Positions 48,991 to 56,843 of a stretch of DNA of 64,000 nucleotides are shown piece after piece. The DNA is from a bacterium. Its GTDB lineage: Bacteria; Zhuqueibacterota; Zhuqueibacteria; Residuimicrobiales; Krinioviventaceae. The stretch's first letter is position 1. Every line of letters starts with the position of its first letter. The stretch spans positions 5,856,001 to 5,920,000 of the forward strand of contig OY843751.1 of the NCBI GenBank assembly GCA_963693055.1. The letters are read 5' to 3'. The notes under the pieces are model-generated. The model made no database searches. It saw only the letters and a list, made by a program, of their open reading frames with translations, and was not told where the DNA came from. Position numbers and translations under genes: made by a program.

Positions 48991-50529
48991 TTATTGATTA
49001 TTTTCCTTACGGTGGAACGCTTTATGGTAACCTGTAATAATGGCTTGATACAAAAAGCCGGGTTTGTCACCGGTTGTACCCAGATAAATATGAACAATCA
49101 TAAACAGCACAAACATCACTGCAACAAAATAGTGCATGAGTGCAATAAAACCCAATCCACCAATTCCCAATAAACCAATGGGTGCAAGTTCCGGGAACAT
49201 GAGCAGTAAACCGGTTATAATAATAACCGGGAACAAAAAGAACATCACAACCAGATAACTAAAACGCTGCAATGGATTGAATTTATGCTTTACAGAACAG
49301 TGATAGGGTTTATCTTCACCTCTGAATATTCCATATACATAATACCGGGCCTGAATCAATAAGCGTTGGTGTACATTATGGGCACCCGGAATATAGTGTT
49401 TTATATTTCCATCAAAAAAGTTCATTGCCAGATAAAAAGCAAATGCAAGCATTAACAAGCGCGCTGCATTATTGTGAACATTTACAGCAACTGCAAAGCT
49501 TAATATGGATCCTTCATTAGCAAAATGCAGGCTGAAACCGGTAAATATCAATATAATAAATAAAATCGCATTCGTGGCGTGCCAGATACGAATATTCAAT
49601 TTATATATATATTCAGAATGCAGTTCGTAATCGGGGCCATTTTTCTTAATATTACGTGTAAAATAAATACGTAATGCACCATGGGCTAAAACACCTGCAA
49701 ACGCGGCAAGAAACATTAAAATGATTAAATTATCAATAAAAGTTAACCGGGTTGCGCCAATCACATATGCATTCTGAAACAAATAATAATTCATAATACG
49801 ATGCAACTGATCATCTTTAGATGCAGTTGCAGATTGATACAGCTTGTGGGTCAATATGGAATTCTGAGAGTGGCAGGAAACGCATTTATGCTGCGCTTCG
49901 TCATCTGCTACAATGTGATGTACATTTGCGTCTTCTGCAGGCGTATGACATTCCACACAACGAACTGAGCGCCAGTGGATTTCACGACTTGGTAAAAATG
50001 AATGAGAGAGATCAAGCTTTGATGCATCTTTACCTGATAAATATGCATAAATTGCAGAATCAACATGACAATTGTAACAATTGTCATTATAATATTTTAT
50101 TTCATGTTCCAGATCCTGGGTCAAAGAATCAAAGTTGGCTCTGTGAATATCATGACATTTAAAACAGTTAAAATCCTGGATCTTTTCAGCATGGTAGCTA
50201 AGTTCATACGCTTCGTGTTGTTCTTCAAATTCTTCACCATGACAATCAAGACACATAGGCGTAGAAGCTGCATCAAGCAAATGTGGAAATTCTTCAAAAC
50301 CCCCTTCTTCCGATTCAATATGACACATGGTACATTCCATCTCACCATGCGTAGCTTTTTGATATACTTCAACAGGCAGATATAAATCAAGAATCTCACC
50401 TTTTTCTGTTACCGGCTCAATACTGTTATCCGCATGACATGCCTGACACAGTTCATCATATTGAGCAAATGTAACCGAAAAAGAGAGTAGCAGCAGCAAA
50501 GTAGTAAATATTATTTTTCTTGAAATCAT
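48991..50529 (-). CDS. Heptaheme cytochrome c fused to cytochrome b (CbcA-CbcB-like)
   Basis: 7 CxxCH motifs, then a TM cytochrome b domain (RIWH, FSLH, VH, FNPLQ, LMH, VHIYL). Confidence 0.85.
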   Translation of the reverse strand: MISRKIIFTTLLLLLSFSVTFAQYDELCQACHADNSIEPVTEKGEILDLYLPVEVYQKATHGEMECTMCHIESEEGGFEEFPHLLDAASTPMCLDCHGEEFEEQHEAYELSYHAEKIQDFNCFKCHDIHRANFDSLTQDLEHEIKYYNDNCYNCHVDSAIYAYLSGKDASKLDLSHSFLPSREIHWRSVRCVECHTPAEDANVHHIVADDEAQHKCVSCHSQNSILTHKLYQSATASKDDQLHRIMNYYLFQNAYVIGATRLTFIDNLIILMFLAAFAGVLAHGALRIYFTRNIKKNGPDYELHSEYIYKLNIRIWHATNAILFIILIFTGFSLHFANEGSILSFAVAVNVHNNAARLLMLAFAFYLAMNFFDGNIKHYIPGAHNVHQRLLIQARYYVYGIFRGEDKPYHCSVKHKFNPLQRFSYLVVMFFLFPVIIITGLLLMFPELAPIGLLGIGGLGFIALMHYFVAVMFVLFMIVHIYLGTTGDKPGFLYQAIITGYHKAFHRKENNQ

Positions 50530-50545
50530 TTTCTCTTCTTTTGGT

Positions 50546-50563
50546 TTGTGAATTATTTTACAA
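50546..50563. promoter_or_regulatory. Rex-like operator
   Basis: TTGTGAA-TTAT-TTTACAA, one mismatch to TTGTGAANNNNTTCACAA. Confidence 0.55.
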
Positions 50564-50964
50564 CTTAAAATTTAACCGTTTTATCCATAATAATAAACAA
50601 AAAAACAACTTGATTGATTATGTACAGCAAAAAGCGGCATTTCTGCCATTACTAATAAGGGTTTGGGAATAATTGCAAGAAAAGCTCAAGCGCATTATGC
50701 AGATTTTCTATTTTTTTTCAAAAAATGGTATTGCGTCTGTTTAATGCTTTCTTATATTGAATATAAAGGACCTGCTTTTGTGAAAAAAAGAACAAGTGTA
50801 ACCATATAGAGCCTTGTGTTGGGACCCATCATGTTTTAATTGTGGTTCTCTAACACTATTCAAATCCTTTTGACTTTCTTTTACGGATCGCCAAGACATT
50901 CTCGTCCTGTATCAAAGCTGGCTGACTTGATATCAATTCCCAATAAACATAAACCAATGACGAG

Positions 50965-53766
50965 ATGTGCATTATGGAAAATTCCACAAAATTTGTCCGC
51001 GTTGTTCTTGTTTCATTGCTTATGCTCCTCATGTTCCACCCATCTTTTTCAGCAAAAGATGAAGATTGCCTCATGTGTCATGCCGATGCAACCCTTACTA
51101 TGGAAAAAAACGGTAAAACAATTTCCGTTTTTGTTCCGGAAAACACATTAAAGGGTACCGTGCATGAAGAAAATGGATGCGTATCGTGCCATATTGACGC
51201 AGATGTTGAAGATTTTCCGCATGATACTCCGCTTGAAAAGGTGGATTGCAACATGTGTCATGATGATATTGGTGAAGATATGGCCCTTAGCACCCATGGC
51301 ATTGCACATGCAAAAGGTGATAAAGACGCACCCGTCTGTATCGATTGTCATAACAAGCATACGATATTAAAAAATACAAACCCAAAATCTTCTACATATG
51401 TTATGAACATCCCTATGCTATGTGGACAATGTCACAGTGAAGACAGCGAAGTTGCGCGCCGGCACAGAATCACCCAGTCTGACATTATTCAAAACTATAC
51501 CATGTCCATCCATGGAGAAGGTTTGTTCCAGGGTGGACTCATTGTTACCGCCGTTTGTACCAACTGCCATACCTCTCACAATGTGTTACCGCATACAAAC
51601 CCCAAATCCTCCATACATAGAGATAATATTGCAGGTACCTGTATGCAGTGCCACGCGCAGATTGAACGCGTACACCAAAAAGTGATCAAAGGTGAATTGT
51701 GGGAAAAACAACCCAACGCCATACCCGCCTGTGTGGATTGTCATTCACCTCACAAAATACGCCGTGTTTTTTACGCGGAAGAATTTACAGATCATTATTG
51801 CATGAATTGCCACGAAAAACAAGACCTTACCCGCAAACTGAAAGACGGAACCATAGATTCATTATATGTAGATGTGAGCGACTTGCAGCATTCCATTCAC
51901 GGACAAAATATTTCCTGTATCAAATGTCATACAAACGTCAGCAGGGGTAAACGTCCTGTTTGTCAAGATTCCGGCCCGGTAGATTGTTCCATTTGTCATG
52001 TTGAACAAGCTGACAATTTCTATTCCAGCATCCATGGCGAATTGTTTGCCAAAGGCGATGAAAATGCCCCTAGCTGTACCAACTGTCATGGTGGCCACAA
52101 GATCCTTGCCGGAGATAATTTGGAATCTCCAACCTTTACTCGTAATATTCCGGCTCTTTGCGCGCAATGTCACAGAGAAGGAGAAAAAGCCGCGGTAAGG
52201 TATACCGGCAAAGAAACCCAGGTTATAGAACATTACACCATGAGTATTCACGGCAAAGGTTTGTTTGACAGCGGACTCATGGTATCTGCCGTTTGCAGCG
52301 ATTGCCATACACCTCACAATGCTCTGCCAGCTAGCGATCCTGAATCAAGCGTGCACGATACCAATGTGGGCAAAACCTGCTCAAAATGTCACTTGGGTAT
52401 TTACGAGACATTTAAATCCTCCATTCACAGCCCCCTGGTATCCAAAACAGATAAAAAGCTACCTGCATGTAACGATTGCCACAAATCGCACGAAATTGAA
52501 CGTGTAGACCGTGACGATTTTCGTGCGCAGATACTGGGACAGTGCGGTCACTGTCATGAGGATGTTACAGAGACCTATTTTGAAACCTATCACGGCAAAG
52601 TTTCAAAACTGGGTTCAGAAAAAGCAGCCAAATGTTCCGACTGTCACGGTTCTCATAATATATTGCCGCCAACGAATATCGCTTCAACACTCAGTCGTGA
52701 CAATATCATAGAAACCTGTAAACAATGCCATCCCAATTCAAACCGCAAATTTACCGGCTATCTTACACATGCAACACATCATAATCGCGACAAATACCCG
52801 GCATTGTTTTACACGTTCTGGTTTATGACCTTTCTGGTTATAGGCGTTTTTGCTTTTTTCGGAATCCATACCATATTGTGGATCCCCCGGTCAATTCGAG
52901 AACGTATACGTATACACAAACATCTGTCCAAACACCCCAAACGCTGGATTGTTCGTTTTGGCAGGCTACCCAGAACACTGCATTTAATGGTCATTGTAAG
53001 CTTTTTGGGCCTTGCCTTAACCGGAATGAGCTTGAAATTTGCCGGTTACGAGTGGGCCTATAATATAAGCCAGTTCTTTGGCGGAGCCGAAGGCGCCGGC
53101 ATTGTTCATAGAATTTGTGCAATCATCACATTTCTCTATTTTATTCTCCACTTTGTATACATTGGTCGTGAAGCTAAAAAGAAAGGCATGAATTATTGGA
53201 AATTCATGTTTAACAAAAACGGAATGATTCCCACAAAACAGGATTTTATAGACTTTTTTCATACCATTCTCTGGTTCCTGGGTCGAAAAAAAGCTCCCCA
53301 TTATGGCAGGTGGACTTATTGGGAAAAATTTGATTACTTTGCTGTATTTTGGGGTGTTGCGGTTATTGGTTCAACGGGACTTGTGCTCTGGTTCCCGGAA
53401 TTCTTTACTCGTTTTTTACCAGGCTACCTGATCAATGTAGCAACAATCATTCATAGCGATGAAGCCTTGTTAGCAACCGGATTTATTTTTACAATCCACT
53501 TTTTCAACACGCATTTCAGACCCCAAAAATTCCCTATGGACCCGGTTATATTTACCGGCAAAGTTCCATACGAAGAATGGAAACTGGAAAGACCCAAAGA
53601 ATATCAGCAATTAAAAGAAACCGGAGAACTGGAAGGTTTAACGCGTGAAACTGAACCTCCCAGATGGTTAAATATTCTGTCCCGCATTTTTGGTTTCTTT
53701 TTCCTCTTATTAGGCCTGAGCCTGGTGGTTATGATTATTTGGGCAATGCTGACACAATATAAATAA
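50965..53766 (+). CDS. 19-heme cytochrome c fused to cytochrome b (expanded CbcL-like); start may be 50974
   Basis: 19 CxxCH motifs; C-terminal cytochrome b with YWEKFDYFAVFWG, IHSDEALLA, HFFN.H.RP.KFPMD. Confidence 0.9.
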   Translation: MCIMENSTKFVRVVLVSLLMLLMFHPSFSAKDEDCLMCHADATLTMEKNGKTISVFVPENTLKGTVHEENGCVSCHIDADVEDFPHDTPLEKVDCNMCHDDIGEDMALSTHGIAHAKGDKDAPVCIDCHNKHTILKNTNPKSSTYVMNIPMLCGQCHSEDSEVARRHRITQSDIIQNYTMSIHGEGLFQGGLIVTAVCTNCHTSHNVLPHTNPKSSIHRDNIAGTCMQCHAQIERVHQKVIKGELWEKQPNAIPACVDCHSPHKIRRVFYAEEFTDHYCMNCHEKQDLTRKLKDGTIDSLYVDVSDLQHSIHGQNISCIKCHTNVSRGKRPVCQDSGPVDCSICHVEQADNFYSSIHGELFAKGDENAPSCTNCHGGHKILAGDNLESPTFTRNIPALCAQCHREGEKAAVRYTGKETQVIEHYTMSIHGKGLFDSGLMVSAVCSDCHTPHNALPASDPESSVHDTNVGKTCSKCHLGIYETFKSSIHSPLVSKTDKKLPACNDCHKSHEIERVDRDDFRAQILGQCGHCHEDVTETYFETYHGKVSKLGSEKAAKCSDCHGSHNILPPTNIASTLSRDNIIETCKQCHPNSNRKFTGYLTHATHHNRDKYPALFYTFWFMTFLVIGVFAFFGIHTILWIPRSIRERIRIHKHLSKHPKRWIVRFGRLPRTLHLMVIVSFLGLALTGMSLKFAGYEWAYNISQFFGGAEGAGIVHRICAIITFLYFILHFVYIGREAKKKGMNYWKFMFNKNGMIPTKQDFIDFFHTILWFLGRKKAPHYGRWTYWEKFDYFAVFWGVAVIGSTGLVLWFPEFFTRFLPGYLINVATIIHSDEALLATGFIFTIHFFNTHFRPQKFPMDPVIFTGKVPYEEWKLERPKEYQQLKETGELEGLTRETEPPRWLNILSRIFGFFFLLLGLSLVVMIIWAMLTQYK

Positions 53767-53800
53767 AAAAAAGGCAAAGGATAACTCCTTTGCCTTTTTA
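53765..53800. terminator. Bidirectional terminator
   Basis: AAAAAGGCAAAGGA-TAAC-TCCTTTGCCTTTTT between convergent genes. Confidence 0.85.
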
Positions 53801-53820
53801 TAACATAAAACTCTTGGCAG

Positions 53821-54906
53821 CTAGAACGCTTCAACCACCAAAGCATAAATAGACATGGTTCCCCACTCATCAAAGCCCAGATCCAACCGGGCATTGATTT
53901 TCTCTCTTGTATCAAACATGAATCGAATTCCCGCACCATAACTGACTTTAAAATCCCGCAGGTGAAAATGATCAACCTTGCATGCAACATCTCCCAATCC
54001 GGCAAAAAACACACCTCCAAAACGCCAGAACAATGGATACCTATACTCGGTTTGCATGGTAATCATATTATTATCCCGATACCGGCCAAAATAATAACCT
54101 CGCATCCAATAAGATCCGCCAAGCAGACCCATCATCTGAAATGGGGGATTCCCATCTATAAAGATGTTATAGCTGTGAAAGGCAAGCACGTGGTTCCTGA
54201 ATATGGGCATATAATGGCGCAGATCCAGGGTATACATTGTAAAATCAAAATCACTTCCAATAGCTGAACCAAAAGAGACCGCATAAAACTGATGATAATG
54301 ACCACTCGTTGGAAAATAAGTGTGATTACGCGTATCCCAGTTTACAAGAATACCCAAACCCGATGCCGCCCCGTCACCACTCCCAGGTATTGTTTGATAT
54401 TGCAATATACCATTGGGATCTGTTTCTTTTAAAGCAATATACTCAAACTGGTAACGGATACCGGTATACAATCCCGGTAATATCCGCTTTTGGATGTTGG
54501 TAAAGGTTCGAATTAACGAGGGGGTAAAATCTTCTTCACTTTCATCAGGAGTATTGCTGCCTGCACCCCAGTATTTATCAGGATATTTATAATAATTATA
54601 GGTGCCGTTTACAAGCCATGCTTCATTATTAAAATAAAGCTCCGGTTGAATGGCAAATAACAATTGTTTTCTCTGTGTAAACGTCAGTGCAACTTTGATG
54701 TTTGATGGGCGAACATCCGTCTTGCTGTCTGCTGCTCTAAATGAATAAACACTCCCCACACCCGCAGCTATATCCGTTTCCGGAGTAAAATAAGCATAAG
54801 GAAGAGCAACCAAACTGTTTCTGTTTTGATCCTGCGCATGGGCAAGAACAAAAAGCAGCAATAACAAAATTGCGCTCAATCGAATTTTAAACATACATTT
54901 TTTCAT
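53821..54906 (-). CDS. BamA/TamA (Omp85) barrel-only outer-membrane protein
   Basis: LP...FTPET, DTRN, LGG...MRGY..GRYRD, GAGIRF, C-terminal EAF; start refined. Confidence 0.85.
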   Translation of the reverse strand: MKKCMFKIRLSAILLLLLFVLAHAQDQNRNSLVALPYAYFTPETDIAAGVGSVYSFRAADSKTDVRPSNIKVALTFTQRKQLLFAIQPELYFNNEAWLVNGTYNYYKYPDKYWGAGSNTPDESEEDFTPSLIRTFTNIQKRILPGLYTGIRYQFEYIALKETDPNGILQYQTIPGSGDGAASGLGILVNWDTRNHTYFPTSGHYHQFYAVSFGSAIGSDFDFTMYTLDLRHYMPIFRNHVLAFHSYNIFIDGNPPFQMMGLLGGSYWMRGYYFGRYRDNNMITMQTEYRYPLFWRFGGVFFAGLGDVACKVDHFHLRDFKVSYGAGIRFMFDTREKINARLDLGFDEWGTMSIYALVVEAF

Positions 54907-54949
54907 GTTTACAATGTATAAATATCTCGAAACTATTACAATCATTATA

Positions 54950-55140
54950 TAAAAAAACCCCGCCAAAAGTATAAGCGGGGTTATTAAACTATAAGCATCC
55001 GGATTACCTGGTGCTAACAAGCTTCACCGGAGGCTCTTATTATCGTACTAATAATAATAAGATCACCTCCTTTCAACAGGGCATCCGTATTCACATCGAG
55101 TCGCTCCCTGTCAGCAACCCAACGTAGCGTGAATTAGGTA
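54950..55140 (-). ncRNA. Candidate structured RNA: pseudoknot, sequestered extended SD and terminator
   Basis: Manual folding; G.U pairs favour the minus strand; ends in CCCCGC..GCGGGG followed by a U-run. Confidence 0.55.
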
Positions 55141-55184
55141 GCTTTGCTATATTTTAAAACCATTTCCTTATTCTATTTATTCCG

Positions 55185-56687
55185 TTATATCGGTGGAGAA
55201 GAGTGACATTCGCTGCAATTTAGATATTGCCAGTCTCCATCAATATCAACCGGATGAACAAAATCAAGTGCGTCACGGGTTGAAGTAAACTGAACATCAC
55301 CTTCTTTACCCTGTGCCGTAATTAAATGACAATCATTACATGTCTTCGATATCACATCACCATCATCACTTTCATGCAGATCATCATGACACCTGAAACA
55401 ACCATTCGATGTCATATGACCTATATGGTTAGGATAGCCTTCCCAGGTCACTTTCATTTCCGGAAAAATGTTTTGCGAAAAAGCTTCCTGAACACCAATG
55501 ACAGATTTTAATAACCTGCCTTTATTTAAAATGGCATCGGGATAATTTTCTTCATAAAATGTTGTTAAATACTCTTTAATACCGTCCATTGCCAGCTCTG
55601 TTGATTCATATTCCTGTAAACATGCTTCAATAGCAGCCTGTTTTACCATTGGCAACGATGCATCTATTTGACCACTGGCAATTGCAATATTGATAAAACT
55701 AGATGGATCATTATAAATGTGACTGGGTCGGTTATGACAGTCAATACAATCCATTGTGCGTCTTTCAATATATTCCGCATCCTCGTCCAGAGGTTCATCG
55801 GTATTGTTATACGTTGTAACCTTGCCTGTGACTTTATTGGTCAGAATAACCTGAGGTATAGTTTCTCTTTTTTCATCTGTAGTGATATACTCTATTTTAA
55901 TATCGGGATTAATATGCCAGTGAATACCTGTCGATTGCCCCATACTCGGGTTTCCGCCACCGGTGTTCATCAACATGTCAATCTCCCAGCGCGTATTCTC
56001 CTCATCGGCAAGATAATAATATTCCATGCGCTGCTGCTTGCCATAAATTTTTTGCGGCCAGTGACACTCTTCGCAGGTCTCTCTTGCGGGTCTCAAATTC
56101 TCAACAGGCGTGGGTATGGGTTTGGGATATTTGTTTGTTAGGGTTGCATACACCTGGTATAATCCACTCAATTTAGATTTTACATACCAGTTCGCCCCTT
56201 CTCCCACATGACATTCTGCGCAGGTAACCCGGGCATGTGGTGAATTATGATAGGCGGTATATTCGGGTATCATTAAATTGTGGCACAAAGTCCCGCAAAA
56301 GGTTACAGACTCTGTATAATGATAAGCTTCATAGCTGCCCAATGCAGATAGAAACAGAAAAACCAGAGTACAAATTGTAAATATGATTGTAGCGTTTCTA
56401 TGTCTGGGATTATTCAGGTCAAGTATTGGAAAATCATCCGATACTTTTTTACCCAACTTTTTCTCTCTTCTTGATTTTCGCAACATTCCAATGGGAATCA
56501 ATAAAAGCCCCAAAATAATAAATGCAGGTACTATCATAAAAATGACAATCCCCACATAGGCTTTATCTAATGATGATAACGAAGATAATACATAAAGAAA
56601 AACAAACATAAATGTTGCGATGAGCGCAATTGCGGCACCAGTGTAGGAAATTATGTTGTAAAAGGACCGTGGTAAATGAAGTTTCAT
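55185..56687 (-). CDS. NapC/NirT family heptaheme membrane cytochrome c (ImcH-like)
   Basis: 3 N-terminal TM helices; CGTLCH plus 6 CxxCH; SPHARV.C.ECH, LRPARETCE.CHWP, DC.DCHNRP.H. Confidence 0.88.
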   Translation of the reverse strand: MKLHLPRSFYNIISYTGAAIALIATFMFVFLYVLSSLSSLDKAYVGIVIFMIVPAFIILGLLLIPIGMLRKSRREKKLGKKVSDDFPILDLNNPRHRNATIIFTICTLVFLFLSALGSYEAYHYTESVTFCGTLCHNLMIPEYTAYHNSPHARVTCAECHVGEGANWYVKSKLSGLYQVYATLTNKYPKPIPTPVENLRPARETCEECHWPQKIYGKQQRMEYYYLADEENTRWEIDMLMNTGGGNPSMGQSTGIHWHINPDIKIEYITTDEKRETIPQVILTNKVTGKVTTYNNTDEPLDEDAEYIERRTMDCIDCHNRPSHIYNDPSSFINIAIASGQIDASLPMVKQAAIEACLQEYESTELAMDGIKEYLTTFYEENYPDAILNKGRLLKSVIGVQEAFSQNIFPEMKVTWEGYPNHIGHMTSNGCFRCHDDLHESDDGDVISKTCNDCHLITAQGKEGDVQFTSTRDALDFVHPVDIDGDWQYLNCSECHSSPPI

Positions 56688-56704
56688 TGTTCGCCCTTTC
56701 AAAT

Positions 56705-56722
56705 TGGTTATATATTTAACAA
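56705..56722. promoter_or_regulatory. Rex-like operator
   Basis: Minus strand TTGTTAA-ATAT-ATAACCA, two mismatches to TTGTTAANNNNTTAACAA. Confidence 0.45.
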
Positions 56723-56843
56723 TATAGATTTTAAACATACAACGCAACACTTATTACATATTAATTTTACACGGTTCCGCAATCTGCTTGGCAATTTCTA
56801 TTCATCTTTTTTTAAAAAATGTTTTTACAATCATCAAATCAAA

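What the first reader, a model, noticed from the sequence alone, without database searches (positions are those of the whole stretch)
54950..55140. Pseudoknotted RNA carrying a sequestered 14-nt perfect complement of the 16S rRNA 3' end
Minus strand, 5' to 3': (1) A long stem AUUCA..CGUUGGGUUGCU / AGCGACUCGAUG-UGAAU whose 7-nt loop GACAGGG (55106-55112) is complementary to downstream CCCUGUU (55075-55081), an H-type pseudoknot. (2) Immediately after, GAAAGGAGGUGAUC (55061-55074), the complement of the conserved 16S tail GAUCACCUCCUUUC, folded into the hairpin GGAGGU-GA-UCUUAUUAU / AUAAUAAGA-GCCUCC. (3) A small hairpin and an intrinsic terminator (54950-54982). G.U pairs favour this strand. No AUG follows the SD, but an AUU 7 nt after GGAGG opens a 14-codon ORF, IIISTIIRASGEAC (55014-55058). 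Candidate roles are a new riboswitch or attenuator, a 30S-binding sRNA, or a non-AUG micropeptide mRNA. It sits within the cytochrome cluster.
Basis: partly seen in the sequence, partly recalled or inferred. Interest (0 to 1): 0.8.

Follow-up and report, generated by a model that had tools for sequence, protein, structure and literature searches.

The report
Pseudoknotted, switchable ribosome-gripping mini-mRNA
This is a conserved, stand-alone RNA of about 190 bases, found in many uncultured bacteria, with an unusually strong ribosome-docking site in front of a 14-codon reading frame that begins with AUU instead of AUG; it likely grips the small ribosomal subunit like the known rreB mini-messages, but it adds a pseudoknot and a predicted two-state fold that those lack.

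Summary
The structure is real and belongs to an undescribed family: 159 non-redundant members, single copy wherever checked, in the window's phylum (likely KSB1), Calditrichota, Ignavibacteria, Fibrobacterota and marine Gammaproteobacteria. Each has a covarying stem-loop whose CAGGG loop can pair with CCCUG, an extended Shine-Dalgarno, a start codon 7 nt later, a 12-16-codon ORF and usually a terminator. The start is AUU/AUC/AUA in 49 of 59 unbiasedly found members and AUG/GUG/UUG in 9, so it is a true start position. Neighbours vary and the terminator forms in both folds, so it is not a riboswitch or attenuator. In a marine homolog one RNA contig runs from the predicted promoter to the terminator. 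No Rfam family reaches threshold. The closest system is the alphaproteobacterial rreB/rreR mini-mRNAs (matched by Rfam CC2171), which bind 30S; they share the docking site but lack pseudoknot, switch and AUH start. Verdict: new variant of rre-type mini-mRNA; ribosome binding and purpose untested.

The parts
54951..55144 (-). Whole predicted transcript, about 194 nt. The 5' end is inferred from the -10 box; read-through from the upstream cytochrome gene is not excluded.
   Evidence: by analogy with homolog L116, whose 5' end maps 7 nt after its -10 box
55151..55156 (-). Putative -10 box TAAAAT; no good -35 in this copy
   Evidence: a -35/-10 pattern is present in 37 of 115 members versus 2.1% of 5750 shuffles
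55092..55126 (-). P1 stem-loop, 14 bp, loop GACAGGG at 55112-55106
   Evidence: 12 of 12 P1 pairs show both-side changes in 56 sequences
55076..55081 (-). CCCUGU, 3' strand of the H-type pseudoknot, pairing with the P1 loop
   Evidence: 98.9% of cells paired; CAGGG/CCCUG in 142 of 159 members
55061..55074 (-). Extended Shine-Dalgarno GAAAGGAGGUGAUC, complement of the 16S 3' tail
   Evidence: (duplex -21.7 to -26.4 kcal/mol)
55014..55058 (-). Micro-ORF, AUU start 7 nt after GGAGG, 14 codons, UAG stop
55027..55038 (-). Anti-SD inside the ORF; pairs with the SD (closed fold) or with the post-stop segment (open fold)
55006..55022 (-). Small hairpin carrying the stop codon in its loop (open fold)
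   Evidence: seen by eye in many FCB-group members
54993..55002 (-).
54951..54985 (-). Intrinsic terminator, independent of the switch

Best explanation
It is a stand-alone mini-mRNA of the rreB type that likely binds the 30S subunit tightly through its extended Shine-Dalgarno, is likely translated only weakly from an AUU start that initiation factor IF3 would discriminate against, and is predicted to flip between an SD-closed and an SD-open fold, so that the act of initiation and translation, more than the peptide, would be what it reads. Proposed cycle: (1) the nascent RNA folds the SD hairpin (predicted: closed by a median 13.5 kcal/mol when cut at the stop codon); (2) once the post-stop segment is made it can capture the anti-SD, or 30S can pull the SD out of the hairpin from the unpaired AAA seed (predicted); (3) the upstream pseudoknot would help dock 30S, probably via S1, as proposed for tisB, rpsO and timP (inferred); (4) 70S would form on AUU mainly when IF3 proofreading is slack, as for this genome's own infC, which also starts with AUU (sequence shown, regulation inferred); (5) a ribosome reaching the stop, fixed 3-5 codons past the anti-SD, would cover the anti-anti-SD and release SD and anti-SD to re-pair, resetting the RNA to closed and probably exposing it to decay, as start-dependent decay was shown for rreB (inferred). 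Shown by calls: conservation, covariation, frame, start-codon pattern, independence from neighbours, transcription of a homolog. Not shown: ribosome binding, translation, switching.
For: Frame: 118 of 118 members give 13-15 codons while the other two frames scatter over 0-100 and 0-50 codons; spacer lengths change in steps of 3; 159 of 159 give 12-16 codons. Start: in scans that did not force it, 49 of 59 have AUU/AUC/AUA, 9 have AUG/GUG/UUG and 1 has CUC at the same place. 16S pairing is selected: the GA bulge, unpaired in the SD hairpin, stays G plus A or G; in the 18 members found by the model alone the core changes are mostly wobble-compatible. Switch: 83 of 113 downstream segments beat 95% of shuffles; open minus closed median 0.1 kcal/mol versus 11.4 for shuffled tails, and 80 of 100 beat all 20 shuffles. 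Peptide poorly constrained: pN/pS 0.9-1.2 overall, GAS varies to GTS/ETS/WAS. infC of G000 begins AUU after AAGGAGG. Precedent: rreB binds 30S, is weakly translated, and a start-to-stop change raises its half-life from 10 to 37 min (PMC5711450); extended SDs accompany AUU/AUA starts in S. aureus (PMC13009471). Transcript.
Against: No ribosome binding, translation or switching was measured. The window's own copy is predicted closed by 10.8 kcal/mol, and its tail does not beat all shuffles. Canonical starts in 9 of 59 unbiased members plus L299 and L300 show that IF3 sensitivity is not universal. Close relatives give pN/pS 0.47-0.68 and L299 keeps Gly-Ala-Ser with three synonymous changes, which hints that the peptide matters. 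Only one of five pseudoknot pairs shows both-side changes. No RNA data were laid on the window's own copy.
Confidence: 0.5

Rival explanations
1. It is a tightly throttled mRNA whose product matters: the 12-16-residue peptide is the effector, and the extended SD, weak start, pseudoknot and delayed opening only keep its level low, in the manner of type I toxin mRNAs such as timP.
For: pN/pS 0.47-0.68 on close pairs; Ser at codon 5 in 81 of 93 members by both UCN and AGU codons; GAS kept with synonymous codons in L299 and L254; RreB and RreR are conserved within clades (PMC5711450); the timP logic of pseudoknot plus long-range SD release is similar (PMC13000454 abstract).
Against: Overall pN/pS 0.9-1.2; peptides are polar and short, unlike the 38-aa membrane toxin TimP; the only common motif coincides with the anti-SD; neighbours show no shared partner or modifying enzyme; an antisense antitoxin was not searched for directly.
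Confidence: 0.25
2. It is a 6S-RNA-like decoy for ribosomes: an abundant RNA that parks 30S-IF3 complexes in slow-growing cells and releases them by translating its own micro-ORF.
For: Strongest SD in the genome with a weak start; single copy, own promoter; element contigs at depth 51.5 and 15.8 against 2-8.4 and 2-4.6 for flanking contigs in two runs; translation is predicted to reset the fold.
Against: Contig depth cannot rank genes, and the runs were chosen for holding this stretch. Twenty-fold overproduction of rreB did not affect growth, and the authors judged ribosomes far more abundant (PMC5711450). Distribution is patchy (38 of 145 genomes in the phylum).
Confidence: 0.15
3. It is a trans-acting sRNA or protein sponge: the P1 loop (ACAGGGAG here) binds CsrA, or the CUCC-bearing segments pair with other mRNAs' ribosome-binding sites.
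For: G000 encodes CsrA; the loop of this copy resembles the ANGGA motif (recalled); a weak rsmX hit at 20.9 bits against a gathering score of 56.
Against: The loop's conserved part is CAGGG, complementary to CCCUG; many members read CAGGGGG; there is only one such loop; the anti-SD is paired in both predicted folds; it does not explain the conserved frame.
Confidence: 0.06
4. It is a riboswitch or leader-peptide attenuator controlling the downstream gene.
For: Pseudoknot next to an SD, short ORF and terminator; ferritin lies downstream on the same strand in several class members.
Against: The next gene is convergent in 72 of 87 loci; flanks are unrelated; the terminator is kept in 98 of 100 members in both folds; a homolog's RNA contig ends at the terminator.
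Confidence: 0.04

Closest known systems
rreB / rreR mini-mRNAs of Alphaproteobacteria (PMC5711450); loci of this kind are hit by Rfam RF01867 CC2171
   Same: Small stand-alone transcript with promoter and terminator; GAAAGGAGGUGAUCC docking site; start codon 7 nt after GGAGG; ORF of about 14 codons; SD mostly in a hairpin with a few unpaired 5' bases; context not conserved; AUG/GUG members of the new family mostly begin start-UCU like rre. RF01867 scores AUG members at 28.7-31.8 bits (gathering 75) and ranks the element first in 3 of 5 genomes. Locus L286 matches the published rreB primers.
   Different: A 60-70-nt 5' domain with a CAGGG/CCCUG pseudoknot (signature in 1 of 17 CC2171 loci); an in-ORF anti-SD with a post-stop anti-anti-SD; AUU/AUC/AUA start in most members; 14-15 rather than 16-17 nt of complementarity, not reaching the start codon; other phyla. 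Model R1 hits 0 of 19 CC2171 loci; RF01867 has no hit in G000.
timP (and tisB) type I toxin mRNA leaders (PMC13000454, PMC11295053)
   Same: 5' pseudoknot, co-transcriptional SD sequestration, long-range pairing that frees the SD without processing
   Different: No hydrophobic toxin ORF, no known antitoxin, non-AUG start; the releasing segment lies after the stop codon
infC-type non-canonical initiation sites (AUU/AUA with extended SD; PMC13009471)
   Same: AUH start plus strong, start-proximal SD; the genome's own infC uses AUU
   Different: Those head ordinary protein genes; here the ORF is 14 codons within a structured stand-alone RNA
Rfam RF02471 Ms_IGR-5
   Same: Its consensus opens with a similar extended SD-like tract
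   Different: The model does not hit the element in any of 5 genomes tested; no upstream pseudoknot in its consensus

Membership tests
rre mini-mRNAs (rreB/rreR) | 16-17 nt perfect complement of the 16S 3' end, reaching the first base of the start codon | tested here: not met
   14 Watson-Crick pairs plus one G.U, ending before the start codon; definition from PMC5711450
rre mini-mRNAs (rreB/rreR) | Start codon 7 nt after the canonical SD | tested here: met
   spacing 7 in 151 of 159 members, 8 in 7, 6 in 1
rre mini-mRNAs (rreB/rreR) | GUG (or AUG) start codon | tested here: not met
   AUU in the window; AUG/GUG/UUG in only 9 of 59 unbiased members
rre mini-mRNAs (rreB/rreR) | sORF of about 14-18 codons | tested here: met
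   14 codons here; 12-16 in 159 of 159
rre mini-mRNAs (rreB/rreR) | Small independent transcript with own promoter and terminator | tested here: met
   terminator found in 111 of 118; promoter pattern enriched; promoter-to-terminator contig in homolog L116; not tested on the window's own copy
rre mini-mRNAs (rreB/rreR) | SD in a hairpin with a short unpaired 5' seed | tested here: met
   predicted closed fold leaves GAAA unpaired
rre mini-mRNAs (rreB/rreR) | Co-sediments with 30S, weakly translated, start-dependent decay | not testable with these tools
   needs gradients, toeprints and reporters
Rfam RF01867 CC2171 | Covariance-model score of at least 75 bits | tested here: not met
   no hit in G000; 17.4-31.8 bits on homologs
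Rfam RF02471 Ms_IGR-5 | Covariance-model score of at least 45 bits | tested here: not met
   no hit on the element in 5 of 5 genomes at E up to 10
Riboswitch / attenuator | Consistently 5' of related genes, with a terminator or RBS of that gene controlled by the alternative fold | tested here: not met
Type I toxin mRNA | Hydrophobic toxic peptide and an antisense antitoxin RNA | tested here: inconclusive
   peptides are short and mostly polar; toxicity and antitoxin not tested

The most novel reading that the evidence does not exclude
A cross-phylum RNA gauge of translation initiation: a 6S-like ribosome decoy that loads 30S through a pseudoknot and a super-SD, holds it at an IF3-proofread AUU codon, and is reset by translating its own micro-ORF. 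Together with rre/CC2171 it would define an ancient, overlooked class of ribosome-toggled RNAs.
Probability: 0.2. Interest if true: 0.88.

Novelty: new variant of a known kind. Interest (0 to 1): 0.63.

Why it matters
rreB-type RNAs were described once, in Alphaproteobacteria, with unknown function. This family extends the design to several other phyla and adds a conserved pseudoknot, a thermodynamically balanced SD switch and a start codon that alternates between AUH and AUG/GUG/UUG by lineage. That gives natural variants to test what such RNAs do: whether the ribosome's engagement or the peptide is the output, and whether IF3 proofreading is used as a signal outside infC. Such genes are invisible to annotation (non-AUG, 14 codons) and absent from Rfam at threshold, yet a homolog is transcribed in ocean metatranscriptomes. 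The work also indicates that Rfam CC2171, listed as an sRNA, covers rre mini-mRNAs.

Tried and rejected
Rfam at gathering level: 0 hits on the window and on 20 homolog loci; E-value hits on the window are terminator-like. Paralogs in G000: none. Mobile elements: 0 in viral contigs, no match in phages, one 25-nt chance hit in plasmids. Ms_IGR-5 link: not found. Phylum of L115: 2 of 151 genomes matched, one being the query and one judged chance. My early idea that AUG is nearly forbidden came from a narrow metagenome pattern (6 stretches) and, whose pattern forced 'AT'; unbiased scans showed AUG/GUG/UUG lineages, so I dropped it. Rows dropped before counting, judged by eye for lacking the upstream CAGGG/CCCUG pair: 8 of 119, 2 of 22, 6 of 23, 14 of 26 rows (one further row was a duplicate). 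RNA run X16 did not cover the SD/ORF; X7 and X13 contigs run upstream of the predicted start, so read-through or DNA is possible; no DNA run or silent stretch was laid as a control. Literature searches that found no description of this family; passages of PMC11109978, PMC5069720 and PMC5737381 showed nothing relevant; their supplements were not read and could list it. Earlier-findings look-ups by sequence returned nothing.

Full report
Observation. The stretch folds far better than its shuffles (z = -4.37, 0 of 200). The loop-to-linker complement of 6 bp arises in 0.5% of shuffles. The 14-nt complement of the 16S tail is the best such site in the genome after the 16S gene itself. Rfam gives nothing at gathering level on the window or on 20 homolog loci. 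The element is single copy in G000. It sits between a NapC/NirT-type multiheme cytochrome gene and an Omp85-family gene.

A family. BLAST of 61 relatives found homologs. A pattern scan of the phylum gave 22 matches in 21 of 167 genomes, 20 of them real. A covariance model built from 56 members found one copy in each of 38 of 145 genomes of the phylum, including 16 of 18 in one family. Record titles name marine Gammaproteobacteria (OM182, Pseudohongiella, Azotimanducaceae), KSB1, Calditrichaeota, Ignavibacteriae, Fibrobacterota, Bacteroidetes and one Lentisphaerae bin. Looser scans added 17 members among 71 genomes of the phylum of L076, 11 among 151 of the class of L069, and 25 (read by eye) among 101 of the family of L116. 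Across Gammaproteobacteria the model hit 3 of 150 genomes. The merged non-redundant set is 159. Dropped rows are listed under Tried and rejected. The window's phylum is likely KSB1, from a class member identical to a locus so titled.

Structure. On 56 sequences, 90.7% of cells pair, against 43-53% when partners are slid and 0 of 500 shuffles as high. All 12 P1 pairs show both-side changes. The pseudoknot is 98.9% paired but mostly invariant: one pair changes on both sides. By eye, A-U becomes G-C in L057, L115, L171 and L207 and U-A in L078. CAGGG/CCCUG is kept in 142 of 159. So the pseudoknot is well supported by conservation and modestly by covariation.

The micro-ORF is real at the sequence level. 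In 118 of 118 members of the first set the frame gives 13-15 codons with the stop 3-5 codons after the anti-SD, while the other frames scatter; spacers change in steps of three. The GTDB pattern forced 'AT', so start codons were counted only in scans that did not: of 59 members, 49 have AUU/AUC/AUA, 4 AUG, 4 GUG, 1 UUG and 1 CUC. A position that alternates among known start codons at a fixed 7 nt from GGAGG is a start site. AUG members recovered from metagenomes keep the same 13-codon frame. The genome's own infC begins with AUU after AAGGAGG. Passages of PMC13009471 report that AUU/AUA starts in S. aureus come with extended SDs, give about 10% of AUG output and are modulated by IF3. The peptide is weakly constrained: pN/pS is 0.9-1.2 over all spanning-tree edges but 0.47-0.68 on close edges (8 synonymous, 14 non-synonymous at one step). 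The shared Gly-Ala-Ser is the anti-SD, varies to GTS, ETS or WAS, yet is kept with synonymous codons in L299. A role for the peptide stays open.

After the stop codon lies a segment complementary to the anti-SD; 83 of 113 beat 95% of shuffles, and the pairing survives large insertions. Folding from the SD to the terminator, the SD-open and SD-closed states differ by a median 0.1 kcal/mol in 100 members, against 11.4 when the tail is shuffled; 80 of 100 beat all 20 shuffles. RNA cut at the stop codon is closed by a median 13.5. The window's copy is an outlier, closed by 10.8, though pairing with the 16S tail is worth -22 to -26 kcal/mol. The pseudoknot domain was left out of these folds. The terminator is unaffected by either fold in 98 of 100.

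Stand-alone and transcribed. The nearest downstream ORF is convergent in 72 of 87 loci, and 49 sampled flanking proteins fall in unrelated families. A -35/-10 pattern precedes 37 of 115 members versus 2.1% of shuffles. Seventeen RNA runs hold the stretch of marine homolog L093. Laid on its 96%-identical relative L116, 7 of 8 runs have a contig over the SD/ORF. In X12 the only contig spans 1433-1615; it ends at the terminator, and at 1615 carries a loose end that I recognise as a template-switch adapter (recalled), exactly 7 nt after TTGACA-17-TAAATT. That points to the 5' end and strand of an RNA of about 190 nt. In X17 the only contig is 1452-1604. Limits: these are contigs, runs were picked for holding the stretch, two contigs run upstream, no DNA control was laid, and the window's own copy was not tested.

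Comparison with what is known. AUG members score sub-threshold on Rfam CC2171, whose consensus opens with the same docking site followed by GUG UCU. CC2171 hits in Pseudomonadota are short transcripts with that site and 14-25-codon ORFs. An earlier finding pointed to rreB/rreR. I read PMC5711450 (abstract and main text parts 1-4 of 5, figures not held) and searched its one text supplement: the rreB primers match locus L286. rreB is a 165-nt mRNA with a 17-nt SD, GUG start and 14-aa ORF; it co-sediments with 30S, is weakly translated, decays faster when the start codon is intact, has no growth effect on overexpression, and its function is unknown. The new family works like rre at the docking site but is not a member by the strict tests: shorter complement, AUH start, an upstream pseudoknot (signature in 1 of 17 CC2171 loci), the anti-SD switch, and no cross-hits of model R1 on 19 CC2171 loci while it finds 12 of 12 of its own AUG/GUG/UUG/CUC-start members. 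L300, with pseudoknot and AUG UCU but no in-ORF anti-SD, looks intermediate, so common ancestry is plausible but unproven. The leader logic also resembles timP (PMC13000454, abstract and outline; PMC11295053, part 1 of 2). CC2171 was confirmed by Northern blot in Methylorubrum with no function assigned (10.1101/2022.01.24.477521, passages). Ms_IGR-5 is uncharacterised (10.1101/2021.12.14.472595, passages) and does not hit.

Verdict. That this is an rre-like, ribosome-engaging mini-mRNA I put at about 0.85. On purpose I commit to a self-resetting reader of initiation (0.5), ahead of a throttled peptide gene (0.25) and a 30S decoy (0.15). I found no description of this family in the searches named under Tried and rejected; unread supplements of motif surveys could list it. 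Novelty: new variant of a known kind. Interest 0.63.

Noticed in passing
L286 and other RF01867 hits L279-L297: Rfam CC2171, typed as an sRNA, hits loci with an extended SD and 14-25-codon AUG/GUG ORFs; L286 matches the published rreB primers, so CC2171 appears to cover rre mini-mRNAs.
   Followed up: yes
L300:1075-1270 (G915): Pseudoknot domain plus extended SD plus AUG UCU and an 11-codon ORF without the in-ORF anti-SD; a possible intermediate between this family and rre.
   Followed up: partly
G000:C1 near 3912250, minus strand (L168): infC starts with AUU six bases after AAGGAGG.
   Followed up: partly
G000:C1:345636 and 345682, minus strand: Two AAGGAGGUGA sites 46 nt apart with no AUG right behind either; several other such sites in the genome also lack an obvious start.
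   Followed up: no
window 53821-55020, minus strand: The mechanical Omp85 ORF starts at a TTG inside the element; the real start is more likely an ATG at 54906 or 54894, after the terminator, with no SD.
   Followed up: no
L020, L021, L024-L026, L251-L258: One family-level subgroup adds a longer 3' domain and a 5'-3' pairing (CCUAG with CUAGG), seen by eye and not quantified.
   Followed up: no
L013, L015, L026, L078; L053, L087; marine gamma loci: Lineage-specific neighbours: ferritin downstream on the same strand; release factor RF3 convergent; LysR or Lhr helicase convergent in Gammaproteobacteria.
   Followed up: partly
L023 (G055): A 27-nt hairpin-like insertion between P1 and the pseudoknot 3' strand, absent in the near-identical L022; the pseudoknot pair is retained.
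   Followed up: no
window 48991-56750: Three multiheme cytochrome c genes, two fused to cytochrome b domains, one on the opposite strand; close relatives keep the RNA near the same cytochrome, AMP-binding and LemA genes.
   Followed up: no
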